Both the position numbers and the translations under genes were made by a program. This document shows, piece after piece, positions 1-58,100 of a DNA stretch of 64,000 bases. The notes under the pieces are model-generated. The model did no database searches. It was not told the origin of the DNA and was given only the letters and a program-made list of their open reading frames with translations. The number at the start of each line of letters is the position of its first letter. Position 1 is the stretch's first letter. The stretch lies in contig CM022667.1 of the NCBI GenBank assembly GCA_012295275.1, positions 12,896,001 to 12,960,000 on the forward strand. The letters run 5' to 3'. This DNA is from Chrysomallon squamiferum. Taxonomy: Eukaryota; Animalia; Mollusca.

Positions 1-79
1 AAACTTCCTCCAGCTCTTATCACAACCCTGAGAATTCTTCACACACTCGTCATCAGTCCTCAAACCAAGTTTCCTCAAG
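1..79 (+). CDS. VIRMA: VIRMA exon (partial): [26 protein letters not shown]
   Basis: Open frame 1; donor AAG|GTATT at 79/80, phase 1, matches the next exon. Confidence 0.8.
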
Positions 80-3000
80 GTATTATTCCTCAGACACAGT
101 TTACTTAACTTAGTTAGTCCTTCAGCCTGACTTGTGTAATCTGTTCACTTCCAAAACCTAGTGTACTTAATCTCTGTAGTCCCCAAACTTAGTTTACTTA
201 GTCTATTTAATCCTCAAACTTGGTTTACTTAAACTATTTAGTATTAAAACCAAGTTTACTTAATGATAATCTATTCAGTCCTCAAATTTACTGAATGTGT
301 TACATAACCAGAAATGTATATGATAATTATGGACTAGACCCCAGTCTGAACATTTTTTAATGGTATACTTTGTTATGAGTGATGATATATCATCCAAAAC
401 AATAAAATAATAACATGAAAGCATAACTGGGGAATAACTGATTATGGTCTTAGGATCTCAGTTTAATCTTGCTAAGGTAAGAATGGTGTAATTCAGAGAG
501 GCTATGCCATTTGACCTGAGCAGGACAAAGCTGATAACCAGTCTTTTTTTCATTTCCTTTTATTCTGAATCCTACATACTACAAAAACTAAATATATGTA
601 ATTAATTGTTTTCATTCTCATCTCACTGCTCTTGATCAGTTTCATGTATATTGGTTTTGATGTCACTTACACTTCAAAACAAAATAGTTCTTAAATAATG
701 AAAAATTATTTGTTATTTTTGGGATGATTGTTTATTCACACTTATTATACTATTATGCTTTGTATTTATGGGGTGTTTTGTGTGTTTTTTAAACTTAAAT
801 TTTATTATTTTAGATCAGCTGACAGAACTAAAATACAAGTATGCTCTACTGGAAATGTACAGTGAGGAGTGTTTTCCAATTCTACTTGGTTTTCTTCAGG
901 TTAGACTCATCATCCTCATCCTCATCATCATCATCATCATCATCATCATTATAATTATTATTATTATATTACAGTATTCAGAAAATCATTAGCTGCTGTT
1001 TCTAAAAATAGAACAACTGTTTATATATTTAAAGAGAAAGACAAATTTATTTGAAATAAAAATTATATTAGATAAATTCTAAACCTTAACCTTAAAAAAA
1101 AGATGAAGAAGAAGAAGAAAATAAGAGAAATTAATGAGTTCAGTAAGTTAAAAAAATGATTTGATTTTTTTAAATAATAAAAAAATTAATAATAATAAGA
1201 AACAATAAACTTGTAGCAATCAAAATTATCTGAAAGATGAAATTACAAAACTCGGTGTTATGTCTGAAATGTTGTTTCAGAAATTGATCTTACCTTATAA
1301 ATTAAATCTGAAACATGAAACTGTTTCACGGATGCTCATTTTTAAGTTTGCTCTTTCAGAAACTGAGTGAGTCTTTGCTGCGTCCATGGCAACAAGGTTT
1401 GCGACTGAACAATGAACAGCTGATGTTGCATCTCGCTATAATACAGCCATCTCTCGCCATTGTCCGCAAAACTCTGTGTGAACTCATTGGAGCTACAGGC
1501 AGAGAGGTGATGACTCTTGTATTGTACAGAGCAATGGATGAATGAATGGATGCATGGATGGATGGATAATTGAAAGAACAAATGAACATATGAGTGTGAA
1601 GAATAAAATAGTGGAAATGGAATGAACAAATGGTTTTGCATAGATGAATGAATGAATAAGGGAGTGCAAATTAGATGAAAAGTGAATGAATATAAAGAAT
1701 GGATGAGAGTGAAGAAATGGATAAAACAAATGAATTGGTAGATGGATGAATGAATTAAAACTAATTAATAAATGAATAAATAAATGAACAGTTAAAAATG
1801 GCATCTTATAAACAACTTATCTTTTGTTTTATCAATGTAGATTCATATTTTATTTTTATTTTTATTTTATTTTTTTTGTTGCCAGGAAGAAACGAATAAT
1901 AAAATAAATTTATTTAGATATGAAAATTTATTGTTAATTTTTTTATTTTATTTTTTTTCAGTTCAAGGACCTGACAGCTCTTCCAGTGTTGTTTGAACTT
2001 TACACTGTGACATGCTCTGTTCCACTCTCACTGATGCACAGCCAGGAACTGTCCAAGGTAATTTAATTTAATTTAATTAAATATCTATAGATACTTTTAG
2101 TTCATTATTTATTACAATGCTATTTAAAATTTTTATCACTTTTGAATATGTACCAACATTTATGCACATATATAGATAAAGACAAACTAGGCTAAAGTGC
2201 AAAGTTTTTCTTTATTTCTTTTCTTATGTTTTTTGTTTCTAATGATAAAACTTTAAAAAAAAATTACATCACATATCAGTTTATCCCAGTTGAAATTCCT
2301 CACAGTGTACATAAAAGTGTGAGCTGTCCACAGACCAGTTAGTGTCATTGTTTTAGCCAAAGATTATCAATACCCCAATCAAAATCTATGAAATAATTGA
2401 AGTTTTATACTAGTTTGACTGAAATCTTTTTGAGAAATAAGAGTGAAATAAAGTGACTGTGACAGAAAATCAAAAATCCACAAATTAGCACATTCACTAG
2501 CTCAAAATAGCTGCTTGCATATTTGTAGTTTTTTTTGTGTGGCATCACAGATATAAATAACGCTCACAACACATTTAAACAGACTGTTTTTAAATATTTT
2601 ATAAAACTTTTCATTTTATTTTCACCTCAGATTTTACATTGGCTGTTAAAGAAAAAGTAAAAATTATTGTTTTACTGACTGTATCTTTATCTTTGTATTA
2701 CATATTAAATTTCAGATATTTTCATTGTAAATAAGATTTTTTAAAAACCCAGATATTTAATATATTTTATCTAATGTAACGAAATATAAATATTGGGTTG
2801 TTATATTTTTTTATAATGCATAAGACACTTTTTTTGTAAATCTCAGTGCAACTTCATAATTGACAAACCTGAAGGTGTTTGCTTTATCTCGCATTTCTGT
2901 TTTTAGGAAGTTAATATTAGTTTTTTTTAAAATACGACCCAAATTCTTAGTTATATACTAGCTATGTTTAGTATTGCAGTTTGTTGTTAATGTTTTTCTA

Positions 3001-6000
3001 AAATTTAAAACACAGATACAGAAGGAAATTATTGACTGTATTCTGGCTTACACTCAGCCCACTCTTGACCCACAGGCTCAGACAGAAGATGGTGAGAAAA
3101 TCTCTTATGTATTATCATTAATTTAGCTAATTCTATTATTTCACTTTCACTTATATTCATAAATGAGAACAAAAGAAAAATGGGTCCTGACTGTAGAATG
3201 TTGTATGATATAGAGACGGTTTATTTGAAAAATATGATCCCTATGGCATACACAAATATGAAATAATATTTTTGTAATTTCAGATATTTTTTTTTAAGTG
3301 ACATTTCTACTGTCACTCCAGTGTTAATTAATTATTATTTTGTTGTCATATTTTATTATAAGTTTAGATTGGCCTTTGACAATTTAATAAACTGGAATGT
3401 TATTTGACTATTTGTTCATACATCTTTAGGCATTTTCATTGTGTTTCTAAATTGCCTTAATAGTAAGTTCATCAGCTTTGATATTTTATCTGTTTTGAAA
3501 TTTAAACATAAAATAACAGTCTTCAAAATTATGTTAACAGTAACTTTGAGGTTTATTACAAGATATTTTCAGGTTTGGGAGATAATGTTTTTATTTCTTT
3601 GTTTTGTTTGTAGCCCTGAGTCAGAGTCTGTGGACTAAAACTGTGGGAGAGTTGTTAAAGTACACTGTGAAAATGCCGTACGCCTATCTCAGTGGACTTC
3701 TCATCCTCTCCGAAATACTTCCACTGCCTCTTCCACTGCAGTCAAAACAGGTGGACTTTTATAGAAAATTTATTCTTTGAAATACTTCTGTTATCACTGT
3801 CAATGAAGTCAAAACAGGTTGGGCTTTTCTAGAAAATTTATCCTTGTCTGAAATACTTCCATTATCACCATTTCTACAGTCAAAACAGGTGGGCTTTTCT
3901 AGAAAGTTTATCCTTTTCTGAAATACTTCCATTATCACCATTTCTACAGTCAAAACAGTGGGCTTTTCTAGAAAATGTATCCTTGTCTGAAATACTTCCA
4001 TTGCCTCTTCCACAGCAGTCAAAACAGGTTGGGTTTTTGTCAAGAAATTGTATTTTTTCTATGAAATGTTTCTGTTAACACTGTCAGTGCAGACAAAACA
4101 GTGGGCTTTTCTTAGTTTTAAATTTTTATCAAATGAAAATGAAAAAGTTTCAAAACAAAATAGTGTTATTTTCATTTGTTTGTGTCAATTATTTTATTTA
4201 TAAATTTAAAACATATTTTTTAGAAATTTTATTATTTCAAATGTTTCATGGAAATTTCCACTAGTATTGAACTCTAAACATCAGCTGTTCTTTGTTTTAT
4301 TTATTTATTTATTTATTTAGTTTTATTTATCAAGGCTCTAACAGATTGGAAGGTTTGTACATGCCTTGAACTCTAGAAAGTTATTTTTGCTCACCTTATC
4401 TATAATACATATATATTTTAATTATAAACATATAGAAAAAATTGGTAGGTTTGTTACATGTTTCTCTGTAGCATTCTTTTTTAATATCACATCTATAATA
4501 CATATATATTTTAATTATAAACATATGAAGTCAAAAAGTTAGTATAACAGTTACAATAAAGCTAATAATTTAATATCACATCGCTAATACATCACATTAT
4601 AAATATATGAAGTTAAAAGTAAGTATAATAAAACAGTGATAATGAAAGGAATAAAATAATTTTGTTAATCTTTAAATATCTAGTTTAACAGAACATTTTT
4701 ATTTTTCTTAATTTTTTAAAAATTAGGTTTTGACATAAATTGTAAAGTAAAATTATTATTATTATTATTATTATTATTATTGCAGTTATTTTTTATAAAG
4801 AATTTAGTTAAATATTTGATTATCACAAGCTTGAGTTTAAGAGAATTTCTTTTTATTGTCGTTATTAGATAATTGTTTAATAATAATAACAATAACAATA
4901 ATATTTCTGTTCTTTTTATAGCAAAAATTATCAAGTTCTGTTTTGAAAATGTTTAATTTAAAACAAAGTAGGTACAGTCTTTATTTCACTTATTCAGGCT
5001 CGAGTTGCCAGCCAGTGCAACACATGATAAGACGAGTCTGTTGTCAGTTGGCAGATCTGGCTGCGCCCACCTCCACGATGCTCACCAAGTAAGTTGACAT
5101 CTGAGCTTTGTGCAGTCACAGAATCACGTCTCTCTTAGAAGTGTCACTTTTTACATTTCTTGTGTCATGTGTTAGATTACTGATAGTTTAAAGTGGGTTT
5201 TTTTCTCCTGTTTAAGACTAAGTGACAGCTAGTTAATATTTTATTGTTTGTTTTATTTTTAAAATGTTCTGTTTTAAAAAATATTTTTATAGATGAAATA
5301 TCTTCTAAACAGTAAGAGTTATAACTAGTGAACATGTAGTTATTTTAATTGTTGTTCAATGTGAAGCCCTTGATATTAATTTAAATGTTGTATTTTTATT
5401 TTATTTTTGAATGATTTGAAAAAAAAAAAAAAATCTTAATATTTAAAACAAAAATCTTTGATGTTCTACATTTCAGCTCTTGATATTTATTAATTTTGAT
5501 ATTTGATAATTTATTTTATTTTTTTTTTTAACATTAATTTTAATATTATTTCTGTTTTGTTTTGCTGTTCTTTATAAATAATTCTTCTTAATATTTTACT
5601 ATTTGTTTTGATGTGAGAACTTGATATTTATTAATTTCAAAACTTTTATTTTATTTTTTCAATGTTCCATAAATAATTCTTACGATTTTTTTTTAAAATT
5701 TATTTTTACGTTCACTAAATTGAGATTTTATTTGTAGATGCTTTGTGGACATTCTGCTCAGCAATCTGAACTGTAAAAAGGAATCGGAGGGTTCGGAAGA
5801 GAAGAAAGAAGGGGATGCAGTGGACCATGATGGTTTTGAGACTTTGTCCTGCACGCAACATGTGGGCAAAGTGTTCAACCTGCTGGCCTACCTCATGTCC
5901 CAGCCTGCCATAAAAACATCCATGCTGGACATCATCAGAGGGTCAGTATCAACACTGTCCAAGTTTTAATAACAGAAGCTATACCAATCTTTGACGATTG

Positions 6001-6214: not shown

Positions 6215-9200
6215 GGTGGGTGTGTTTTGGCCTGGATGTTCATAATATTTCTTATGCCTTTAACACCAGCCTTTGCTCATGTGTATATTTTTGACTGCAA
6301 AATAAAAATAAACAACAAAAATATAAAATAAATAATAATACATTTCACTATAAATGAAGAAAATTATAATAATAATAATAATAATAATAATAAAATAAAA
6401 TAAAAATTAATAACAACATTATTTTATTTAGTTTTACGATTTTTCTCTTTAACCCTATTTAATCTAAGTTTTTTTGTTCGCGTTTTGTTTCAGGTCTTTG
6501 GAAGAAGAAAACTATTCTCGCTTGCTGCCATGTTTTCTGCAGATGTTGAATCACGTGTCAGACAAACCAGCACACAACAGTGCTCAGGAGTGTATAGTGG
6601 TTAGTTACCACCTTTTATATCCATCTCTTTATGTTCCCTTTAGACATTTCATCTTCCATGTGTTTTGTTAAGTTTTACTTCATTTTTTTAGCTTTTCTTT
6701 TTCTCTCAGTTGTTTTGTGCTCATTTCTTTCGTGTTTCCCCGTGTAACTGTTTTTGTGTTACATGTCGATCAGTATTCCAGTGAGTCTGTATCTGTTTTA
6801 ATGTGTAGGTGTGTCTTAATTTGTAAAACAAATTTTGTTTATTATTCATCTGTTTATTTATAATGTTGTGTATGAAATGTTTATTTGTTTACGTTGCTTA
6901 TTCTTTATTTTATAATTGATCTGTTTTGTTTCTACAAGACCTGTTTTCATTCTACAAGTTTACGAGTATCTGTTTGATTATTTTCAGAGTATTCTGCTGA
7001 ATCTGTGTGACCCAGAGATCACCCTCGTGTCACCAGAGTCCAAGATGTCATTACCTGAACAGGTACGAGGACTTTCCACATTATTACATTATTAAAAACT
7101 CTTATGATTGTTAGAAAGAAATTTCTTTTGTAAACATTTGTCATGCAGCTCTTGAATGCTGTGGCGGTGCTTGTCTTACACAGATAAATTTTCAAATTTT
7201 TATAACAGTACTGTAATGTCTGTAATAACTACTCTACTGTTATTATTATTTAAATTACTACTGTTATTATTACAATTATTACTGCAACAGCTACTACTCC
7301 TACTACCACCACTACTGTTACTACTACTAACTTTGATAACTATTCTACTCCCATTATTAATTTAATAGTATGTATTATTATAACTATTAGTTTAATCTAA
7401 CTGTTACTAAGTTTAATTGTCATAACTGCTTTTACTATTATTACTACTATTATCATTACTGATGCTACCACCATTACAACAACAACTACGACCATTGTAA
7501 CTCTACTACTACTACTTTTACTACTTTTTCTACTTTTACCACTATAATTCATCTACTACCATCTTCAGGACAGTCTTAACTACTGCTCCTTATACTGCAA
7601 ATCCTTGCTGAAGTTTGAAGTATTTTAATGATCAGCTAAATGTGTGGGTGTTTTTCAGCTCGCCAACTCCTTGCCAGGAGGAGAGAACCTGAGTTTGATT
7701 GTGAATGCTTTGTTAGAACACATCAGCAACAGGGACCATTCCTACGCCACCATCTTGCCTTGTGTCAGGACGCTGGTCATGCTAACTGACCACGATTACG
7801 GCTTTTATCATGTTTACAGGTAATACGATTGTCAGTGTTATTTGTTAAGAAACTGAAGTAAAAATCAGAAATATTTTTGTGGTGACGATTTTTCTGTTGT
7901 TTTTTTTTAATATAAATTGGAGTAACATACATTTCATTATAGTTCAGGATAGTGGAATGTATAAAAAAATAACACTAATGAGATGTAGTAATAGAAATAT
8001 TAATAATTAAAAAAAATGTTAAGAATAATAATTAAAAATTAAAAATAATATAAAAAAAAATAATCATGATAAAAATAAACGAATTTGTAAAATAATGATT
8101 TCTTCTTAAAATATTAAATTATGTAAATATCATTTTCATTTATAAAATGTATTAATTTGTATTTGTTTATTTCAATGGTTTAAAGAAGATTTCCAGCGTT
8201 TTTAACAATCTTCTGATATTTATTTATTTCAGTGGTTTAAAGATTTCCAGCATTTTTAACAATCTGCTGATATTTATTTATTTCAGTGGTTTAAAGATTT
8301 CCAGCATTTTTAACAATCTGCTGATATTTATTTATTTCAGTGGTTTAAAGATTTCCAGCGTTTTTAATAATCTGCTGATATTTATTTATTTCAGTGGTTT
8401 AAAGATTTCCAGCTTGTTTAACAATCTGCTGATGTTTGTTTATTTATTTCAGTGGTTTAAAGAAGATTTCCAGTGTGTTTAACAATCTGCTGATATTTAT
8501 TTATTTATTTCAGTGGTTTAAAGAAGATTTCCAGCGTTTTTAACAATCTGCTGATATTTATTTATTTATTTCAGTGGTTTAAAGAAGATTTCCAGCGTTT
8601 TTAACAATCTGCTGATATTTATTTATTTCAGTGGTTTAAAGATTTCCAGCATTTTTAACAATCTGCTGATATTTATTTATTTCAGTGGTTTAAAGATTTC
8701 CAGCGTTTTTAATAATCTGCTGATATTTATTTATTTCAGTGGTTTAAAGATTTCCAGCTTGTTTAACAATCTGCTGATGTTTGTTTATTTATTTCAGTGG
8801 TTTAAAGAAGATTTCCAGTGTGTTTAACAATCTGCTGATATTTATTTATTTATTTCAGTGGTTTAAAGAAGATTACCAGCATGTTTAACAATCTGCTGAT
8901 ATTTATTTGTTTATTTCAGTGGTTTAAAGAAGATTTCCAGCGTGTTTAACAATCTGCTGATGTTTGTTTGTTTATTTCAGTGGTTTAAAGAAGATTACCA
9001 GCATGTTTAACAATCTGCTGATATTTATTTATTTATTTCAGTGGTTTAAAGAAGATTTCCAGCGTTTTTAACAATCTGCTGATATTTATTTATTTCAGTG
9101 GTTTAAAGATTTCCAGCATTTTTAACAATCTGCTGATAGTTATTTATTTCAGTGGTTTAAAGATTTCCAGCGTTTTTAATAATCTGCTTATATTTATTTA

Positions 9201-11254
9201 TTTAAGTGGTTTAAAGATTTCCAGCTTGTTTAACAATCTGCTGATGTTTGTTTATTTATTTCAGTGGTTTAAAGAAGATTTCCAGCGTTTTTAACAATCT
9301 GCTGATATTTGTTTGTTTATTTCAGTGGTTTAAAGAAGATTTCCAGCGTTTTTAACAATCTGCTGATATTTATTTATTTATTTATTTCAGTGGTTTAAAG
9401 AAGATTTCCAGTGTGTTTAACAATCTGCTGATATTTATTTATTTATTTCAGTGGTTTAAAGAAGATTACCAGCATGTTTAACAATCTGCTGATATTTATT
9501 TGTTTATTTCAGTGGTTTAAAGAAGATTTCCAGCGTGTTTAACAATCTGCTGATGTTTGTTTATTTATTTCAGTGGTTTAAAGAAGATTTCCAGCGTGTT
9601 TAACAATCTGCTGATGTTTGTTTATTTATTTCAGTGGTTTAAAGAAGATTTCCAGCGTGTTTAACAATCTGCTGATGTTTGTTTATTTCAGTGGTTTAAA
9701 GATGATTTCCAGTGTGTTTAACAATCTGCTGATGTTTGTTTATTTATTTCAGTGGTTTAAAGAAGATTTCCAGTGTGTTTAACAATCTGCTGATATTTAT
9801 TTATTTCAGTGGTTTAAAGAAGATTTCCAGCGTGTTTAACAATCTGCTGATTCGTATTTGTTTATTTATTTCAGTGGTTTAAAGAAGATTTCCAGCGTGT
9901 TTAACAATCTGCTGATTCGTATTTATTTATTTATTTCAGTGGTTTAAAGAAGATTTCCAGTGTTTTTAACAATCTGCTGATTCGTATAAACAACACGTTC
10001 AGCAAGGACAGTTCAGACTGTCTGTCCACTCTCTCTACCAGCATCGAGTTTCTCCGACTTCTCGTCGTCGTGGAATCCTCGGTCATGGATCTGAGCTTCA
10101 CTAGGACCTACATGCTGACCACTCAGCAGCTGGCAGAGGTGCTGTCATGGCAACCTGGCATACAGCACCCTCTGGATGACCTTGAAAAATTACTAGAGGT
10201 GAGAGATTTATTGACTTCTGATTTCAAAATTTATTTTTTGTGGATTGATATTAGATCAATGTCTGGTATGTGTTTAAAGTAATTTCAACAGTTTGCATTA
10301 GGTATTTATTTTTGTTTATGTTTATTTGTATAGATATATCTTAGTGGTTTAAGTTGTGACTTCAGACACAATAGATTGCAAGATCTGTATACCACATCAG
10401 TTATAGCCAAGATACAACATTAATTTGCATGTATTTATATTGTTTGTTGTAAAGAACATGTTAAAACTTCCATGTTGATAACTGATGTCCACAGCTTATA
10501 AAATAACAACATAGATTTCATCTTTAGGCTATCATTAACATAACATGGCATTAAAATTCCTGTATGATTAAAAAGCACACACACAAACGCTCACACACAC
10601 ACACACAAATTTAACTATCAGTATTTAAATATTCACTTTAAAGTTCTGTCATTCTTTATATCTGATCTAATAATGAGTCAGTTTAGAGAATCAAATTTGT
10701 GCAGTTTAATTCTGCTACTCTGTTTGTAACCAGATGAGAGGGAAGGATGACTACAAAATAATGACAGTTAATTTTATTTGTTATGTGTGATGGTCTGTTT
10801 AGGAGTGTGCGAAGGAGGAGGAGTCCATAGACAGTCTGGTAGAGAGTATTCACTCGCTGATGAAAGTGTTGAGAGAGGCAGGCAGTGAGGAGGAGAGACG
10901 TGAGTTTTATACGTTCAACTGTGCATGTGCACAGACTTAAGACAGTCTCTCTGATATATATATATATATATATATAGATCTTACATAAAAATGTACATAT
11001 ACACATGGACACACACCAACATGCACAAGCACACATACACAGACACACACAGTGCATATATTTCCATGAATATAACAAAAAATCATTTTTGCACACACAC
11101 ACACACAGATCCATATGCATATATTTACATTAAAATGCAAAAAAGCAAACATGTATGTACATCCATACACTTATTCACATAAACAACACTCATAAATTGT
11201 TTTTTGTCTGCACACATATGCATTCACACACACACATACACATCACATAAAACA

Positions 11255-12149: not shown

Positions 12150-15100
12150 AGACACACACATACACAGACACACACACACACACACACACATACACAGACA
12201 CACACACACACAGACACACACACACACATACACAGACACACACACACACACACACAGACACACACAGACACACACACAGACACACACACAGACACACACA
12301 CACACAGACACACACACAGAGATACACACACACAGACAGACACACAGAGACATACAGACACACACACACAGAGACATACAGACACACACACAGAGAGACA
12401 GACACAGACACACAGACAGGCACACACATCCACACACACACACACACAGACACACACACAACACACAGACACACACAACACAACACACACAGACACGCAC
12501 ACACAAACATACACACACAGACACACACACACACACAGACAGACACAGACATACACAATCTTCATAAAACTAACACTAAAAAAAAATATTGTCGTTTGTT
12601 AAAAATAGTTTCATTATTAATGAACATCATTATTATAATTTGACTTAAAATCTTGATAAGAACTACTTAAATAAAAAATTATCAATTGTTAAAAAGTTTC
12701 ATCATTAATTCTATTTTATTATTATCATTTGTCATAAAATGTTCATAAAACTACTAAAAAAAGATAATTATCGTTTATTAAAAACAGTTTCATGGTTATT
12801 TCCATTTTATCATTACTGTTTTATTTTATTTTTTTAATATTTTACTCAAGATGTTGTGACAAATGATAATAATAATATTAACGACAAAAATGTTTTTAAC
12901 AAATGATGCTGTTTATTTAAAATCTTCATAGGTGTTATGAAGGTGCTTATGATAAAATTAATTATGATGATTGGAAGTTATTTTGTGGTTGTTTACTTCC
13001 TAGTTGCTCCAATGCGTGGACGTGGATTGATGAGTCAGAACAGATCTGATCCATTTCGGTCACGCCCTCCAAACACGAGTCGCCCCCATCCATGCACGTC
13101 GATGACTTCATCAAGATGGAGAAAAACCGATCTCACAGTCCATCGCCACAGCAGCAGCACATTCAGAGTACCACCACGAGACGAATAGACAAAGTAAGCT
13201 CATTTAAAAATATAAAATTTCTATATTTATAGTTTAGACTTTAATTTTTTTTTTTTTTTTTATTATGATAAATAAATAAAAATTTTAAAATCGTAAATGT
13301 ACTGACAGCACTGCAGATATAATTAAGTAATTTTTTTTTTTTTAATCCTGTTTATTGTAAGAGCCACTCATGTTTTTGTAAAGCTGAAAGATGCATCAGT
13401 TTACCTTTTGTATTTTTGTAAGATGAAGTCATGTCTTTAACTGATGACAGTTTTTTTTAATTTCTCTCACCTCACTGTTTAAAAACAATATTAAAATTTG
13501 TTACGGCGAAACTGTTAAAACGTAGCTGAGTTTTATTTTAACGTATTAATAATTACATTTGTTTTTAACAGGACACTTCACCCTACAGAGGGCGTGGTCG
13601 AGGCGGTTTCCCGTTCAGTGACAGAGGTAGAGGTGGGTTTTCCACACGGGGGAAATTCTTTACCCCACCACCGAGCTATGGACCTCCAGAACATAGTGAG
13701 TTGATAAAAAAAAAAAAAAAAAAAAAAAAGCAATGGAGGTTACCTCCTGAGCAGACTATTACAACTGATAATGGATGGAGACCATCAATTCAGTATTTTA
13801 CATTCAGTTTTTAATTCGTTGAGAGAAAGTTTGGGCTATAGCTCTGTGGTATATATATATACACTAGTATGGAGTGAACTGTATTTAAACATGGTTCCTA
13901 CAGATCCTTAAAAACCCATAAAAAAAAAATCTTACATTTTAGAATAATTGTCAATTCTTAAAAACTTCAATCTCAGGAAGATGTTCAAAAAGTCAGTAAA
14001 AGTCTGTAAACAAAAACAAACAAAACAGAAAAACATTTTGTTTCAGTGTTTATTAGGGTTCTGTTCTTTATTTTCTTTACACTGGTATTTTCTATGTTTG
14101 TGGTGAATGTACTGTGAGATAGTTAGTCCAGCAGTGATAATCACCTCTCCCTTCTCTCTGTGTTGCATGCAGTGATTATTTTCCCAAAAGAGGTCCCATA
14201 ATATTCATGTGGATCTCATCCTTAAAAATCCATGGAAAGTCCTTAAATTTCTGTTGTGTGGGAACCATGTTTGATTTTCTGAATCTTTGGTTTAAAACCA
14301 TCATCAGTTTTGTGTCAGTGTAACTGTTGATAGCTTTGTTTTGTTTATAAGTGTATTGGTGTGTCTTAATATTACAAATTATTTGAAAATATTTGCATTT
14401 CATCTTACAAGACTTGATGAATAATCCACGAACACTGTAAACAAGAAAACAAAGTCAAACAGAATAAAAGTAAAAATATGAAAAATTGACATTTCATCTA
14501 TAAATTATTAAAAGTAAAAGACATTCTCCACATGTCTTTAAGAAATAAAAGACTTTAAGAAGTTAAAATATGAAAGTTAGAATTATATCTCTGTGGCAAC
14601 TGATTTCATAGTAATAAAACAAAACATTATCCATAAACCACCCACTTGAATAAAAAAATAAAATAACATAACTTAGCATAAAATAACAAAATAAAATAAG
14701 TTTAAAACAATAACAAAATTATCACAATTAAGATTAAATTATAAAAACGGACATTTTGTATGTGTTCAGCTGATTTCACATTACTAAGACACTTACTCTA
14801 TTCATCCATCTTAATAAATAAAACAAAGTTAAAATATGAAGAACGATATTTATTTCATCTCTGTATATAGCTGATACAATATCTATAAACCACCCACTGT
14901 AAGAAATAAAACAGAATAAAAGAAATAAAATGTGTATAGTGCTGATTTTAACAGTGTGTTACTTGTTGCATGTGATTTTTCTTACAGTGCAGCGTGGAGC
15001 AATGACTTCATATCGAGGTGACAGAGGGAAATTCAGCCCTCGTGGATTTTACAGAGGAAGGTAAACTAATAATCATCTGACTGTAAAATTACAGTAAATG

Positions 15101-22455: not shown

Positions 22456-24887
22456 AAGAGATAAATGCATCTCCAAGATATGTAAAATGGTAACATAATG
22501 ACAGAAGTAATGTCAGAAGAGTGAAAGCACACAATCTTCCATGCAGTGATATTAATTTGATAATGAAAAAAAAAAAAAAATTACAAATAAAATAAAACAA
22601 AATAATTGTGAATGAAAAATGTCTTGAATTTTTGTACAGAGGAAAATAGTCATGGAAGACAGTTTGTTATATTGCAGACAAATGGATCTACAAGATTTGT
22701 CATAATGGTAACAATTACAATACTCAGATCTGCATGGGCAAATCAGCAAGGAAGCTAAAAAGTAGTAATGTATCCATCACTGAATAATATGTTTTAGATA
22801 TAAACTATGTAAAAAGAGTTTTTGCCAAAATGTTCAAAAGAGATAAATGCATCTCCAAGATATGTAAAATGGTAACATAATGACAATATTCATAAAAACA
22901 CAAGTAATGTCAGAAGAGTGAAAGCACACAATCTTCCATGCAGTGATATTAATTTGAAAAAAAAAAAAAAAAATTACAAATAAAATAAAACAAAATAACT
23001 GTGAATGAAAAATGTCTTTGAATTTTTGTACAGAGGAAAATAGTCATGGAAGACAGCTTGTTATATTGCAGACAAATGGATCTACAAGATTTGTCATAAT
23101 GGTAACAATTACAATACTCAGATAGTCATATTTATCGAAAAGAAAGCTAAAAAGTAGTAATGTATCCATCACTGAATAATATGTTTTAGATATAAACTAT
23201 GTAAAAAGAGTTTTTGCCAAAATGTTCAAAAGAGATAAATGCATCTCCAAGATATGTAAAATGGTAACATAATGACAATATTCAGAAAAACACAAGTAAT
23301 GTCAGAAGAGAGGAAAGCACACACAATCTTCCATGCAGTGATATTAATTTGAAAACGAAAACAAAAAAAATTACAAATAAAACAAAACAAAATAATTGTG
23401 AATGAAAAATGTCTTGAATTTTTGTACAGAGGAAAATAGTCATGGAAGACAGCTTGTTATATTGCAGACAAATGGATCTACAAGATTTGTCATAATGGTA
23501 ACAATTACAATACTCAGATCTGCATGTGCAAATCAGCAAGGAAGCTAAAAAGTAGTGATGTATCCATCACTGAATAATATGTTTTAGATATAAACTATGT
23601 AAAAAGAGTTTTTGCCAAAATGTTCAAAAGAGATAAATGCATCTCCAAGATATGTAAAATGGTAACATAATGACAATATTCAGAAAAACACAAGTAATGT
23701 CAGAAGAGTGAAAGCACACAATCTTCCATGCAGTGATATTAATTTGAAAACGAAAAAACAAAAAAAATTACAAATAAAACAAAACAAAATAATTGTGAAT
23801 GAAAAATGTCTTGAATTTTTGTACAGAGGAAAACAGTCACGGAAGACAGCTTGTCATATTGCAGACAAATGGATCTACAAGATTTGTTATAATGGTAACA
23901 ATTACAATACTCAAATATCCACATTTTTATCGACAAGAAAGCTAAAAAGTAGTAATGTATTCATCACTGAACAATATGTTTTAGATATAAACTATGTAAA
24001 AAGAGTTTTTGCCAAAATGTTCAAAAGAGATAAATGCATCTCCAAGATATGTAAAATGGTAACATAATAACAATATTCAGGAAAACACAAGTAATGTCAG
24101 AAGAGAGGGAAAGTACACAATCTTCCATGCAGTGATATTAATTTGATAATGAAAACAAACAAAAATTACAAATAAAATAAAACAAAATAATTGCGAATGA
24201 ATAATGTCTTTGAATTTTTGTACAGAGGAAAATAGTCATGGAAGACAGTTTGTCATATTGCAGACAAATGGATCTACAAGATTTGTCATAATGGTAACAA
24301 TTACAATACTCAGATATGCACATGCCTAAGAGCGAAAAAGCTAAAAAGTAGTAATGTATTCATCACTAAATAATATGTTTTAGATATAAACTATGTAAAA
24401 AGAGTTTTTGCCAAAATGTTCAAAAGAGATAAATGCATCTCCAAGATATGTAAAATGGTAACATAATGACAATATTCAGAAAAACAAAAGTAATGTCAGA
24501 AGAGAGTGAAAGCACACAATCTTCCATGCAGTGATATTAATTTGATAACGAAAAAAATAATTACTAATAAAACAAAACAAAATAATTATGAATGAAAAAT
24601 GTCTGAATTTTTGTACAGAGGAAAATAGTCAGGGAAGACAGTTTGTCTTATTTGTCATAAAGGTAACAATTACAATACTCAGATATGCACATGCCTAAGA
24701 GCGAAGGAAGCTAAAAAGTAGTAATGCATCCATCACTGAACAATATGTTTTAGATATAAACTATGTAAAAAGAGTTTTTTCCAAAATGTTCAAAAGAGAT
24801 AAATGCATCTCCAAGATATGTAAAATGGTAACATAATGACAATATTCAGAAAAACACAAGTAATGTCAGAAGAGAGTGAAAGCACGC
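22456..24887 (+). repeat. Tandem array of ~370-400-bp units (6 full + 1 partial)
   Basis: AAAAGAGATAAATGCATCTCCAAGATATGTAAAATGG recurs at about 22456, 22836, 23228, 23626, 24023, 24422 and 24792. Confidence 0.95.
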
Positions 24888-27560
24888 AACGTTTTGAAAG
24901 AGGTAAATGGTTATGGAAAAAGATTTGTCATATCAAAGACAAATGCAATTCACCAAAAGAAACCTAGGACATGATCATGAAATAGAAGACTCATTTTGTA
25001 ATGAAATTGATAATTAGAACCAAAAAGAGAAGATAAAGAAATAGAATATCCAGGTACTTAGGACTGATTATGTATCTACAGACAAGCTAACAATCAGTTG
25101 GAAACAAATACTTTAAGAGATTTCCCTTGACACTTACAAAGAGATTGTGATCAGAATATTACATCTGCAATGCCATCCCCTTTGCTACCAACTATTACAA
25201 CTATTACTACATCAGTAGAAATGTATGCTGTAACCAGCTGGTATGTACAAAAGAAAACAACAAATCTTTGTCCTCCCTTCTATGTCAACCTTGACATCTT
25301 CTTCAGATTTATTGAAAATAATGAACAACTGTCATTCCACCACTTTTGACATGAGCCTATTTCCCAGAAACAGAGAACTATATGGCAAAAATGAATCTCA
25401 TTTTACAAGTAAAATAAAATAAAAAATGAAATGGTTAAATGAAGTGATTTTCAAAATGTTCCTAATGTAAGTGAATAAGCGTTTGTTTATATATATCATC
25501 TTCAAAAAATCTATTCCTAAGATAAATTATAATTATTATATTTATATAAAGTTGACATGATCTCTGAAGAAAACTGTAACTGCCAAAATTTTGCATTCTG
25601 TATTTACACAATACATACATAATGTAACAAAAAACAACAAATATGCTTTATTTCAAATTATCTGATTTGAAGCCTAAACACAATATACAACAACTTAATA
25701 AACTGTTTTTCTTTCCAGTTTAAGAAAAATAATTTAAATATAATATTTCTGTATTTGTCTCATTTTTAACTAAAAAAAACAATTTAAAAAGATTTTAAAT
25801 GTATTTACCCCCAAAAAGGAGATAATGATAACAACAACAACAAAAACTATAACATGATTCTTTTTACATTGACTATTTCTACAGTGCTCGTATTAGTAAT
25901 CTCTCTCTCTCTTTCAGAGAAATATACTCTTCCTCATACTATTGATCTCTTACACATCTGGAATATTACAATATATTCTGATCATGATCAAGAAATCGAA
26001 GAGGTAGAAATAACTTTGTTGTTTTCATCAAATAATCATGTTAAATAGGTTAGTCTAAGTTTTATTTTGTAACTAAAATCATAACTGCTTCACGATCTTT
26101 GTTTTCACCACAGATGGAATATTGTAATCAATAATACATTTAATCACAAAAAGGTAAAAAAAAAATTATAATTTATTTCACGAAACAAATGTAAAATCAA
26201 ATATTTGTCAGTTAACAGATATGATTAATAGACAGAAGATTATTACTGTATTATTTTTATAACTTGTCTTTATTTTAAAACTTTCTCTACATAATGAGTA
26301 TTTTACTTATTTAGATACTTATTAATCTACCATTTATTTACATTGCAGAATCAACGCTGTTGGAATGAAACGATTTAAGATATTTCAATTCATAGCAACA
26401 AGAGACTGTGGATAATAAAACTATGATTAAATTGTACAAACTATGATGAGGTGAATAGAAACAGACAGTTACGAGTTAAGTATGCGTAATACCTTGTACA
26501 ATACCTATACTTTCACTGCAAAGAAAACAGGGAGTTTGTTGCTGTCTTATATCTTCAAATAATGTACAACTCTGCCATTCTAAACACTTATTACATGAAA
26601 CCAGATCACATATGTTTCCTAGTAAGAGAAAACCACAGAGCAACAATGATTCTATTTAAGGATATAAATAATGTGCCCTGTTTAACAAAAGTGAAAAAAA
26701 AATCTTAAATCAATATTTAAATGAGTTAAACTTACAGTAACATGGACCAATAAGGCATACAGCATCACACACTGGAAAATAGCCTTTCATGTGAGCTATT
26801 TAAGTACGAAACATGCCAGAATAAGAGTAAAAAAAAAAAAAAAATAAAACATTTTACAAATATTTGAATGTGAAGAATTTGTCATAATATATGTAAATAA
26901 GAACATTTCCCTAATAACTGAATTAAGTGTCATCTTTGTTAATGCTTTTTTGTAACCTAAATTATAACTGCTGCAGTTATCTGAAGTTATTGCCATGATT
27001 TCTGAAGAAAAATATAATATAAAGATGTATATTTATATAATATAACAAAAGCATCAAAAATACTTTCTTTTAGGAATTTTAAAAATGCAGTTTTTCTACA
27101 TTTATTTTGATTTCCATTTTTTTGCATGTAATTTTTTTAATAACTTTCAGATGTATGACAGTATCTTTTTTCCTTTACATTAGAAAAATAATGATAATAG
27201 AATAAAATTTAAAATGCAGTTTAGTTTTCTGTAACCATATAATATATATATATGTATATAGATAAAAGTTGGCTACTTCTAATTCTGATTAAAAAATAAA
27301 TAAATAATGAAAATAGTAATACTAAGGATTAGATCTTGCTCATGAAGTTTATATTTCTGTTCTAATTAAAAAAAAAGTTTTCCTTTAAAGTATTTTTTAT
27401 TCTTTTGTATTATTATTATTTAAATTAAATGCAATTATTTATTTTTCTTAATGCAGTGTAATAATTTTAAAATAACTTAAAAATTAAAATAGGAAGGAAA
27501 TTTCTACTATTTAAATTTCTAAATTATTAAAATCAGATATTTATAGAATTTTACCAGCCG

Positions 27561-32415: not shown

Positions 32416-33258
32416 TCATATAGTAGTTTCTTTTTCTTCTCGATGAACAGCATGTGCACAGTGTCTGCATTTCGGCTGTCTTTTCGAAGTTTCTTGTTCC
32501 TTTTCTATCCTCTCCAGAACCTCCAACAATTCTGTCCTTTCTATCTGCATTCGTTCTAGATCCTGCCTCCTCTGGAGTTCCAGATCCATCAACAGTTTCA
32601 CCTTCTGATTTATTTTCGTCAGTTCCGTTCTCAACTCTTGCAGACTGCTCTGCATGGCTGCCTCTCTCTGGACCATGTGTCCACGCTGCATGTCCAGCCT
32701 GACCTCCATTTCTCGCCGCTGGTCGTCCAGTTTGCAGATCATCTCTGCTCGGAGAATCTCGATAGAACTTCTCAGTTCAGCGATGCAGTTGTGTTCCTTG
32801 TCGTCAGCGCTAGACAGACGTAGTCCACAACCTTTAGGACATTCTTTCGAGCCACTGCCACAGTTTTCCAAATGTTCGTCCATTTTGTTTCTGGGCACTG
32901 ACCGGTGACAGCTGGCGTTTGGACACCGAATCAATTCAAACGGACAGTCTCCTCTGTGCGATGCTTCGAATTCCAAGTTACAAACGTGAGTGCAGCCTTG
33001 TCTGAAATTCCGGCACCTGATTGAAAGACGTTGCAAGTCGTTTTTCATGTATCTGAAGATCGGTTTCAGGTCTGACGGGAAAAGCGGTTTTCTGTCTTCG
33101 GGACAGGAGCACTCGTTGGCCAGCCAGCTGTTGATGCAAGCTGAGCAGAAGGCGTGCTCACACGGAGCCTGCAGAGGTGATTCGAGGACGTCGCGACAGA
33201 TGCAGCAAAGAAGTCCGTCGTTCACTGTTGCTGTAAAACGTTCCACGTCATAGCCCAT
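32416..33258 (-). CDS. RING finger E3 ubiquitin ligase, RNF151/NRDP1(RNF41)-like: RING-HC + TRAF-type zinc fingers + coiled coil, 280 aa, single coding exon
   Basis: MGYDVERF...CCICRDVLESPLQAPCEHAFCSACINSWL...CPEDR, TRAF-type CPKGCG...EHNC, then heptad-rich helix. The track's TTG start at 33312 lies in the intron (acceptor TTCTCCAG|G at 33302/33301); the true ATG is at 33258. Confidence 0.93.
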   Translation of the reverse strand: MGYDVERFTATVNDGLLCCICRDVLESPLQAPCEHAFCSACINSWLANECSCPEDRKPLFPSDLKPIFRYMKNDLQRLSIRCRNFRQGCTHVCNLEFEASHRGDCPFELIRCPNASCHRSVPRNKMDEHLENCGSGSKECPKGCGLRLSSADDKEHNCIAELRSSIEILRAEMICKLDDQRREMEVRLDMQRGHMVQREAAMQSSLQELRTELTKINQKVKLLMDLELQRRQDLERMQIERTELLEVLERIEKEQETSKRQPKCRHCAHAVHREEKETTI

Positions 33259-33864
33259 GTCCGTCCAGAAATCGACTGATGATGTCTGCGAAGCGTTAGA
33301 CCTGGAGAACAAAATTATTCATTCAGATAATTAGGTCATTATTATCAATAATTTATGTTTCTTACAACAAAAAAAAAATAATAATAATAATAATAAATAA
33401 ATAATAAATAAATAAATAAAAAACACAAAAAACACAACAACAACAACAAAACAAAAAACATACACTCATTAATACGTACACATAAAAACACATACATACA
33501 CCCACACACACACATAGATATATAACTAACTAACTAATTAACTAAATAAATAAATGTTTTTGCTGTACTTGTACTTACAACACTAGAATAAAACTATATA
33601 TTTTTCAATGTGGTTTACTCTAACTATATTTGAATTTCAGTCTGGTTACACTAGTTTACTTTAGAACAAAACTTTTATTCAGAAACCCGCTGTTTGGACG
33701 TCTCGACCCATGACGTTAAGGTTATTTGTACACGCGAATTTCAACATAGAAATTCTTTGTCCGAGACATTCAGCTCACCCCACCAAAGGAAGTTATAGAT
33801 TTACAGTGGAAAAGTATTGAATTTCAAAATGTTGTCTATTTATAATATTATTATCATGAAATTC

Positions 33865-55148: not shown

Positions 55149-58100
55149 TTATTATTATTATTTTTATTTTTATTATTTTGTTGTTGTTGTGGTTTCAGGT
55201 TGAATAACTGAATATGTTTATGATCATTTCATGTTTATTATTATTATTATTATTATTTTTTTTTTTTAGAATATAAGTTTCAGTAATCAAAAAAAAAAAA
55301 AAACAGAAAAATAAAACAACACCAACAATTCATAATCAAAACAGACAATACCCTAAGGAGCTATAGACAAAAACAAAAGTCTATACATACAGACAAATAA
55401 ATAAAATAACAAATCATGTAAATATAAATGGGTCTTTCTACAGATGCAGTAGACTCATAAAAACAACAAAAACCACTATCAAATATCAAGAACACTATTT
55501 TCTTTCTATTCAAATTGTGTATTAAGCATTGTAAAATAATAAAAAATTTAATGTCATATTTATTTTCAGTACATAAAAATGTGTATGTATATATTATTGT
55601 CTCCATACCTCTTTATATCTGAAAAATTAGATTCCTTAGAAAATCATTAAAATGCTGTAAATACCTCTTTTGTGTGAAAAAACAACAAAAAAACAAAAAA
55701 AAATAATTAAAAAAAATAAGATTTTGATTACTTGGAAAATTATCACAATGCTATAAATATCTCTGTAACAGAACAAAAATAGATTACTTGGAAAATTATC
55801 ACAATGATGTAAATAACTTTCTGTATCTGAAAAAACAGATAACATAGAAAATGTTGACAATGCTGTAAATACCTTTCTGTATCTCAGAAAATAGATTATA
55901 TGGAAAATGTTCACAATACTGAACACACCTCTCAGTATCTGAAACAGATAACTTGAAAAATGCTGTTTATTTTTCTGATGACTTTTGGTCTGTAAATAGA
56001 GCCACACCTTCAACAGTTGATAAATTATTTTGCCATGACTTAGGAGATATCCGCTTTTATTGATCACTACCTTTAAACTCTCTTATGCATTCTGAAAGGA
56101 TGATTATATACAGGTTTTTAAATGTTTTTAGTGTTTTATTTTTTAAATTTATTTATTTATTTAATTATTTATCCACTATAAAAAAAAAAAAAAAAAAAAA
56201 AATGAAAAGAACATCACAATCATATCAACATCATCAAAAAGAAAGAAAAACAGTACAAAAAAAACCTCCATTCATTCATATAATAAACACTCAAAACAAA
56301 AATGACAAACCACTTCCCCAAAGCATAAACCTATATGCAAAAAAGAAGAGAAAGATCCTCATAACAACATTCCAAAACCAAAGAAACCATAAACAAATGA
56401 AAATAAAAACTAAAAATAAAAATAATCCATATAACAGAAAAAAAGAAAAACCAACAAAAAAACCAAAAACTGTAACTAATGTAACCATAATGTATCTTAC
56501 TATTTTACACTAATACCTTCTATATAATGTTTACTGTAAGCTGTTATTTTTCTCTCATTAACAACCTCAGCTCTAATCTCTGTTGTAACCAATTATTTTG
56601 TAACCTCTTCTGTAACCTTGTAATTTTTTTTTCTTGCAGGGTTCCGACCCTCTGATTCAGACAGCGCGTGGGAAATTGCAGACTAGACGATCCAAACTGA
56701 ACGACAAAATTAACAAAGAACTACGCATGCGAACAGGAGCTGAAAATCTCTTCAGGTATGTATAAAAAAAAGATAAGATGTTAAATGATTAACCTTACAT
56801 ACTACTTACTGGTCATAAAATTTAATCAGTTTTCTAACACAAAGCAATTGTTTAAATAACTTTGATTGTTTATTTTTATTTTTTTAATAATGAAAATTAG
56901 GTAACGAAAAAAAAAAGAGGTAAATATTATCTTTATTTTTTAGCAGGTGTTTATTACATCTGCATCTGTATAACTATTTGGATGTTGTTGGTTCTGTCTG
57001 ATTTTTTTTTTTTTTTTTTTTTTGGGGGTTAAATAGGTGTTCATTTTCTGTGTCTGTTCATTATTGGTAGGTTATGAAAAACAAATCCAAAGCAAGTCAT
57101 TCAGTCTAAGATAAAACTAAAATTAATATTTAAAAAATGTATTTTTTTTTGTCCATTGTAATTTATATTTAAGTCATTAAAATTAACATTGATGGTGTGT
57201 GAAAATAACAAAAGTGCATTTTGATTAAAAAAATATTGACAATTTTCATCTTCATTATTTATATATATATTCAATTCAATGATACAGTATGGATAACAAA
57301 AAAAATTAAAAATTAAAAATATCCCCAAAAAACCCAAAATAAAACCAAATTAGTTACTAAATTATGATAGTGATTATTAATATTTATGTTCAAGGTTGTT
57401 TATGGGTAATGTTATTTTTTCATTTCAGAAATGTTACATATTTAATATCTTTCAGAAATAATAACTGTGAATATAAAATTTAATGTAAAACTCTTTTAAT
57501 AATACTGACAATATTTCATTTAATTATACTGGTTAAAACATTATTTATGTTTTTTTATATTATAATATTTTTCATTATGTCATCACTGTAATATTTTGTG
57601 ACGTTTATTACATTTTTGTTTTTTAAATTGTGTTTTATTTAACTTAATTTTACCAGTAATAAGAGATGGAGTTTTAAATTCTTGAATGACAGAATATTAA
57701 CGACATTTAGACAAGTTGGTGGTTTGCCAGCTGTTTATTGCTTCAAATAGCTGATATGTCTTAAACTTGTGGGTCACTCTGAACTTCAAATGCCTTTGCC
57801 ATACACAGTGTTTACATTTTTCTTACTTAATCGTGTAATAGAAAGTAATATAAAACTTTGAAATTTAAATTAAAAAAAAAATACCCGTAAAAATTATCTT
57901 AAATAAATAAATGTATTAGCAAATGAAAAGTCATATTAAACAGGATTCCTATAAAATTAGTATATTATCAATACTTTGGAATGTAAAATAAAAAAATAAT
58001 TAAAAAATATATTCACTCATTTAGTAGCAAATAATTTTTTTTTATTGTAAATGAAGCTCATAAAACTGCTGTATAGTACATAAAATATTTCAGCATACAT

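What the first reader, a model, noticed from the sequence alone, without database searches (positions are those of the whole stretch)
8158..9985. Array of 31 tandem 3' splice sites in front of a VIRMA exon; 30 are decoys that all lead to premature stops
Seen in sequence: every unit is (ATTT)n-CAG followed by the first ~40 nt of exon 9940-10198. 29 of the 30 upstream units keep an AG (unit 1 has CAA, unit 19 has AAG). The exon-derived end of each unit supplies a branch-point-like CTGAT for the next acceptor, 16-24 nt from its AG, so even the real acceptor sits behind duplicated exon sequence. The penultimate unit is 65 nt and both shifted frames contain TAA (GTT TAA), so splicing to any upstream acceptor without re-splicing truncates the protein. 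The seed junction shows GTAT microhomology between exon (TTCGTAT) and intron flank (TTTGTAT). Established knowledge: VIRMA/virilizer is the scaffold of the METTL3-METTL14-WTAP m6A writer and affects splicing; first-AG scanning would favour upstream sites. Inference: either exon definition skips ~29 near-identical acceptors, or the array is a copy-number-tunable NMD or splicing-factor decoy that sets VIRMA dose.
Basis: partly seen in the sequence, partly recalled or inferred. Interest (0 to 1): 0.82.

Follow-up and report, generated by a model that had tools for sequence, protein, structure and literature searches.

The report
Splice-acceptor "mirage" minisatellite in VIRMA intron
The end of an intron plus the start of the next exon of a VIRMA (m6A-writer scaffold) gene, likely from a mollusc, is repeated 31 times head to tail, but the spliced transcripts assembled across this junction use only the last copy, so it is likely a harmless repeat of a kind already described in lancelets and humans.

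Summary
The array is real: 31 units at 8158-9987, with 28 CAG, 1 AAG and 1 CAA upstream acceptors. All 30 upstream sites would give a TAA. The gene is VIRMA/virilizer, likely molluscan. Genomic contigs of three runs from three studies, each differing from the window's haplotype, carry many copies of the unit, so it is not an assembly artefact. Both spliced contigs that cross the junction (two studies) join 7819 to the last acceptor, 9940. Contigs drop rare forms and NMD was not blocked, so low leakage is not excluded. Nothing points to a tuned decoy. The stops follow simply from a 65-nt penultimate unit, 12 of 30 units are in-frame, and the few private mutations hit the acceptors. The same gene has two more exon-boundary arrays, both more decayed (3712-4110, 55-264). 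This is a new member of the amphioxus 'mirage' class (PMC3087553), with human parallels (F7 IVS7, CBS 844ins68). The scan has noted the same kind of array in other genomes (8 notes). Verdict: ordinary, likely neutral.

The parts
7659..7819 (+). Upstream VIRMA exon; donor CAG|GT after 7819 (phase 2)
   Evidence: tblastn blocks. Loose ends of spliced contigs X7 and X8 equal window 7787-7816. The exon start is read from sequence only.
7820..9939 (+). 2120-nt intron, about 84% made of the array
8148..8175 (+). Likely ancestral acceptor region: unique intron with a TTAAT branch-like motif at -21; the acceptor now reads CAA (no AG); holds one side of the 7/8 microhomology
   Evidence: sequence; ancestry inferred
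8158..9987 (+). 31-unit minisatellite (54-65 nt units, 20 types among the 30 upstream units, higher-order blocks of about 345 nt) copying the intron end and the first ~41-48 nt of the exon
   Evidence: multi-copy in genomic runs X3, X4, X5
9912..9939 (+). Working 3' splice site: predicted branch point CTGAT (A at 9915, -25) derived from the exon copy in unit 30, then the ATTT tract and CAG
   Evidence: acceptor use shown; branch point predicted only
9940..10198 (+). True VIRMA exon, 259 nt, spliced on to 10803
   Evidence: contiguous with the upstream exon in 15 of 15 homologues that matched both exons, of 17
3712..4110 (+). Second boundary array in the same gene: 70-nt unit copying an exon end and its donor (about 5 copies, 81-87% matches, plus a decayed sixth)
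   Evidence: use of donor 3750 inferred from homology, not tested on RNA
55..264 (+). Third, old boundary array: 31-nt unit whose first copy is an exon end plus the predicted donor at 79; later copies decayed (64% matches)
   Evidence: first unit matches the majority of units 3-7 at 24/31, reached by 0 of 50000 random 31-mers

Best explanation
This is a 31-copy minisatellite of an intron-end/exon-start junction in a VIRMA gene; the assembled mRNAs splice only to the last copy, and the other copies are likely inert intron sequence. Inferred origin: slippage or unequal exchange between a 7/8-base microhomology in the intron flank and one 48 nt into the exon duplicated a 61-nt piece. The copy placed an exon-derived CTGAT at the same -21 register as the old TTAAT branch-like motif, so the downstream copy was likely a working acceptor at once. 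Ordinary repeat turnover then likely expanded it (higher-order blocks, ATTT slippage, a spread 3-nt deletion). Inferred mechanism of choice: both flanking introns exceed 250 nt, so exon definition with donor 10198 would favour the nearest acceptor, giving a 259-nt exon versus 324-1966 nt. Any leak would be predicted to go to NMD as noise, not as regulation.
For: Shown: 2 of 2 spliced contigs across the junction (X8, study P1, 10.5x; X7, study P2, 16.6x) join 7819 to 9940 unbroken, and their depth at 9921-9963 is accounted for by that one contig. 15 of 15 homologues matching both exons have no insertion there. Genomic runs X3, X4 and X5 carry the unit in many copies, with a tandem joint in X3 and X4. 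X4 has a unit variant (8199 T>A) absent from all 31 window units. No bias to frameshifting units (12 of 30 in frame, P=0.28); 2 of 5 private substitutions fall in the CAG. Two more boundary arrays in the same gene are more decayed. Literature: amphioxus mirages do not disturb splicing (PMC3087553 and PMC3902484, passages); CBS 844ins68 uses the downstream copy (PMC2630376, passage); cross-exon proximity under long introns (PMC9225289, abstract and passages).
Against: Contigs drop rare variants and NMD was not inhibited, so exclusive use is not shown. RNA run X9 holds a 91-nt contig of array-internal sequence at depth 4.9; this may be pre-mRNA, DNA or decoy-spliced RNA. PMC9225289 reports that upstream 3' splice sites are preferred overall and that long introns only reduce this preference. 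In some human donor-side arrays (6-16, CBS intron 13) the nearest pseudo-sites are used (PMC1557585, Introduction). The array is present in every genomic run laid (3 of 3), which retention by selection would also predict.
Confidence: 0.82

Rival explanations
1. Leaky decoys set VIRMA dose: some transcripts splice to upstream copies, gain a TAA and are degraded by NMD, so copy number acts as a cis-regulator (possibly with m6A feedback).
For: 30 of 30 upstream sites would give PTCs more than 250 nt before the next junction. Six upstream acceptors match the real one over -20..-1. Array-internal contig in RNA run X9. Leaky neighbours are known in human donor arrays.
Against: No decoy junction in 2 spliced contigs. 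The PTCs follow from one 65-nt penultimate unit. No sign that the AGs are conserved. No listing on such a VIRMA event among 12 of 174 papers shown.
Confidence: 0.1
2. The array is a staging ground for intron or microexon gain: a decoy acceptor pairs with a weak internal donor and inserts an in-frame 13-14 residue duplicate of the exon head (the model proposed for mirages in PMC3087553).
For: 8 units hold a GT that would give a 39- or 42-nt in-frame microexon.
Against: Those donors match only 3 of 7 consensus positions versus 4-6 for 12 candidate real donors. No insertion in the contigs or homologues.
Confidence: 0.04
3. Assembly artefact or inflated copy number.
For: The whole array was not spanned by any read or contig here; copy number 31 is not independently measured.
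Against: Tandem joint 9981 to 9921 in two genomic runs, and summed depth tens of times the unique depth in three runs. Twenty structured unit types.
Confidence: 0.03

Closest known systems
Amphioxus 'mirage' minisatellites (Adh3, globins BflGb6/BflGb9, troponin C, PGBD5; PMC3087553 and PMC3902484, passages read)
   Same: Tandem copies of an intron/exon boundary next to the true boundary. BflGb6 copies the intron 3' end plus exon start, as here. Many but not all units keep AG/GT, both boundary types occur, and the mRNA is spliced normally.
   Different: Here a likely molluscan VIRMA gene, with 31 units versus 3-6 in BflGb6 and three such arrays in one gene. Length polymorphism and somatic instability were not measured here.
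Human F7 IVS7 37-bp VNTR and similar donor arrays (6-16, CBS intron 13, LMNB2, PDGF; PMC1557585, abstract, Introduction and Discussion read)
   Same: A minisatellite whose terminal unit spans the exon boundary; the copy next to the exon is the one used; the pseudo-sites are potentially functional.
   Different: Donor side rather than acceptor side; in 6-16 and CBS the nearest pseudo-sites leak.
Human CBS 844ins68 (PMC2630376, passage read)
   Same: Duplication of an intron/exon junction; the downstream copy is used and the upstream exon piece becomes intron.
   Different: Two copies only, not an expanded array.
Poison-exon / AS-NMD autoregulation of splicing factors (search listing only)
   Same: An RNA-processing gene with potential PTC-generating splice choices.
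   Different: Those elements are conserved and demonstrably used. Here there is no observed use and no sign of constraint.

Membership tests
Mirage minisatellite | Head-to-tail repeats whose unit spans an intron/exon boundary of the host gene | tested here: met
Mirage minisatellite | Copies lie in the intron beside the authentic boundary; many but not all keep AG/GT | tested here: met
   29 of 30 upstream units keep AG
Mirage minisatellite | mRNA is spliced at the authentic copy | tested here: met
   2 of 2 spliced contigs across the junction; contigs cannot exclude minor forms
Mirage minisatellite | Concerted evolution of internal units | tested here: met
   Shared variants and repeated blocks of unit types; 345-nt higher-order period
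Mirage minisatellite | Length polymorphism between haplotypes or somatic instability | tested here: inconclusive
   A unit variant in X4 is absent from the window, but short-read contigs give no copy number
AS-NMD / poison regulatory element | The alternative site is used in vivo | tested here: inconclusive
   Not seen in X7 or X8; ambiguous array contig in X9; no NMD block
AS-NMD / poison regulatory element | Use generates a PTC more than 50-55 nt before a junction (rule recalled) | tested here: met
   30 of 30 in silico
AS-NMD / poison regulatory element | Splice signals under purifying selection | tested here: not met
   Within the array, 2 of 5 private substitutions hit the 3 CAG columns of 56; small numbers
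AS-NMD / poison regulatory element | Conserved across species | not testable with these tools
   No eukaryote genome collection or own assembly was held
Recursive splicing (ratchet) sites | AG immediately followed by a regenerated GT donor (definition recalled) | tested here: not met
   Units read AG|TG; the GT two bases in matches 1 of 7 consensus positions in 29 units
VIRMA/virilizer gene | Colinear homology of exons to virilizer proteins | tested here: met
   E down to 1e-19 for the exon; 13 ordered blocks against P0003. The N-terminal Pfam domain lies outside the window, and 8 exon peptides gave no Pfam match of note.

The most novel reading that the evidence does not exclude
The upstream copies leak at a low, copy-number-dependent rate into NMD, so the length of this array is a heritable dial on VIRMA level and hence on global m6A in this animal. 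A second, weaker idea: three of four minisatellites in this gene start at an exon boundary (rough P about 0.01, or 0.055 without the focal array), hinting that exon edges are birth sites of minisatellites in invertebrates.
Probability: 0.08. Interest if true: 0.65.

Novelty: new member of a known kind. Interest (0 to 1): 0.2.

Why it matters
As it stands it matters little. It extends a described repeat class to a likely molluscan gene and gives a large natural test case for 3' splice-site choice among about 29 near-identical competitors, where cross-exon proximity appears to beat first-AG scanning. The working acceptor's predicted branch point is built from copied coding sequence. Three arrays at different stages of decay in one gene give a tidy picture of birth and decay. 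It would matter more if array length tuned VIRMA, since that would link a VNTR to transcriptome-wide m6A.

Tried and rejected
No assembly is held for this window, so genome-wide frequency of such arrays could not be counted. Pfam on 8 exon peptides gave only two chance-level hits. Runs X6 and X9 had no contig on exon 7659-7819; the tool leaves out some records, so this is no finding. Summed contig depth (X4 2350 vs 55; X3 374 vs 8.6; X5 about 1700 vs 82) was used only to show many copies, not to count them. No listed contig bridged the unique flank into unit 1, so whether its CAA is shared by other individuals is unknown (table 8 was cut). Polarity of divergence towards the real exon was not significant (rho -0.27, p 0.15), although units 29-30 alone keep the full TCGT junction. 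My first alignment of the 55-264 array was out of register (14/31, not significant) and was corrected. Recursive splicing was rejected. Selection for frameshifting units was rejected. The private-substitution count covers 56 aligned columns and leaves out the variable ATTT part, which has one more private change (2 of 6 if counted). Paper searches gave no paper on this locus. The 'mirages' search gave 4 papers, 2 relevant, none on molluscs or VIRMA by title or listing. The original Adh3 paper and all supplements were not seen.

Full report
Observation. The window holds a tandem array at 8155-9982 (TRF: period 61, 31.0 copies, 90% matches, score 2509). There are 31 unit starts between 8176 and 9940. 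The 30 upstream acceptor trinucleotides are 28 CAG, one AAG (unit 19) and one CAA (unit 1). Units are 54-65 nt: about 41 nt of exon head followed by an (A/G)TTT tract and CAG. A CTGAT (once CTTAT) branch-like motif lies at -17, -21 or -25 before acceptors 2-31 (12, 15 and 3 sites). Splicing donor 7819 in silico to each site gives a TAA for 30 of 30 upstream sites, 253-1718 nt before junction 10198, and an open frame only at 9940.

The gene. The 86-residue exon peptide finds 17 proteins; the best are named VIRMA or virilizer from bivalves (55-57% identity, E to 1e-19), then a snail, a brachiopod and arthropods. The animal is therefore likely a mollusc. tblastn of five of these lays colinear blocks over 1-13.7 kb. 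In 15 of 15 homologues that matched both exons (of 17), exactly one residue, the split codon, lies between exon 7659-7819 and exon 9940-10198. No array-derived coding sequence is expected.

Is it real DNA? Nine public runs hold the region; seven were laid, all as contigs. Genomic runs X3 (study P1) and X4 (P3) show a tandem joint from 9981 back to 9921 and the same 3-nt deletion that 10 of the 30 upstream units carry. X4 and X5 (P2) pile up on unit 1. All three differ from the window in the unique flanks, and X4 shows two haplotypes. The array is therefore shared among individuals and is not an assembly artefact. Copy number cannot be read from these contigs. X4 has a unit variant at 8199 that none of the 31 window units has, a hint of turnover.

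Which acceptor is used? X8 (recorded as RNA, P1) and X7 (kind guessed, but spliced; P2) each have one contig covering 9937-10196, joined on to 10801 across a GT..AG intron. The loose end before 9937 equals window 7787-7816, and the shared CAG fits both sides. Both thus join 7819 to 9940, unbroken, at 10.5x and 16.6x, and no other contig lies on the unit in those two runs. On the other side, RNA run X9 holds one 91-nt contig (depth 4.9) made of array-internal sequence across two acceptors. It pools many copies and could be pre-mRNA, DNA or decoy-spliced RNA. X9 and X6 had no contig on the upstream exon, which the tool's filtering can cause. Contigs drop rare forms and NMD would remove decoy products, so low leakage remains open.

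Signs of function? None found. That every upstream site gives a stop follows from the 65-nt penultimate unit and the TAA in both shifted frames. Twelve of 30 units are in-frame and stop-free (P=0.28 against one third). Of 5 private substitutions in 56 aligned columns, 2 fall in the CAG (P about 0.03, tiny numbers, post hoc), which leans to decay of the decoys rather than conservation. Unit types repeat in blocks, matching a 345-nt higher-order period, as expected from unequal exchange. Units read AG|TG, so they are not recursive sites. Internal donor-like GTs are weak; eight could give in-frame microexons, which were not observed.

Origin and mechanism (inferred). Flank 8155-8162 and exon 9980-9987 match at 7 of 8 bases. 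A duplication between them gives a 61-nt unit whose junction survives in units 29-30. It puts the exon's CTGAT in the same register (-21) as the TTAAT motif in the old intron, so the downstream copy probably had a usable branch point from the start. The old acceptor (unit 1) has since lost its AG. With introns of 2120 and 604 nt, exon definition with donor 10198 would favour the nearest acceptor: 259 nt versus 324-1966 nt. PMC9225289 (abstract and passages) supports cross-exon proximity under long introns.

Context. The same gene has a 70-nt array copying an exon end and donor (3712-4110) and an old 31-nt array whose first unit is an exon end plus predicted donor at 79 (24/31 match; 0 of 50000 random 31-mers). 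Match rates of 90%, 81-87% and 64% look like three stages of one neutral process. Three of four arrays of period 25 or more with at least 2.9 copies in the gene start at a boundary. A rough calculation with about 35 inferred boundaries gives P=0.01, or 0.055 without the focal array: suggestive only.

What is known. [quoted passage not shown] They include an acceptor-plus-exon-head case (BflGb6), keep many AG/GT signals, vary in length and do not disturb splicing. PMC3902484 (passages) adds troponin C and PGBD5. PMC1557585 (abstract, Introduction, Discussion) covers human donor-side arrays: silent in F7, leaky at the nearest copies in 6-16 and CBS. PMC2630376 (passage) describes CBS 844ins68, where the downstream copy of a duplicated intron 7/exon 8 junction is used. 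I found the human cases myself; the name 'mirage' came from earlier notes of this scan (8 similar findings in other genomes), and I checked it in the two papers. Searches showed no paper on this locus or on molluscan mirages. The original Adh3 paper and supplements were not seen.

Verdict. Observation confirmed; the regulatory interpretation is not supported but not fully excluded. It is a new member of a known kind, likely neutral (0.82). Interest 0.2.

Noticed in passing
window 3712-4110: 70-nt array copying the end of a VIRMA exon and its donor; five downstream donor-like GTs, one (3888, in frame) matching the consensus slightly better than the presumed real donor at 3750. RNA use not tested.
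   Followed up: partly
window 55-264: Old, decayed 31-nt array whose first unit is an exon end with the predicted donor at 79.
   Followed up: partly
window 32419-33318 (-): 300-codon open frame with RING and TRAF-type zinc fingers (Pfam E to 1.5e-7), a TRAF-like gene or exon.
   Followed up: no
window 56641-56757 (+): Likely exon with a partial HR1 repeat match (E 3e-5, below Pfam's cut-off), perhaps of a PKN- or rhophilin-like gene (names recalled).
   Followed up: no
window 22501-24889: 397-nt tandem repeat, 6.1 copies, 91% matches; relation to any exon not examined.
   Followed up: no
window 12548-12815 and 55726-55944: Further intronic-looking minisatellites (89 nt x2.9; 56 nt x3.9). The first is not at an exon boundary; the second shows no obvious one.
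   Followed up: partly
window 8162-8229, run X9: A 91-nt array-internal contig at depth 4.9 in an RNA library; source (pre-mRNA, DNA or decoy splicing) unresolved.
   Followed up: partly
window 10200-10910, run X4: Dense heterozygosity in the introns beside exon 9940-10198 (dozens of substitutions and several indels over about 700 nt).
   Followed up: no
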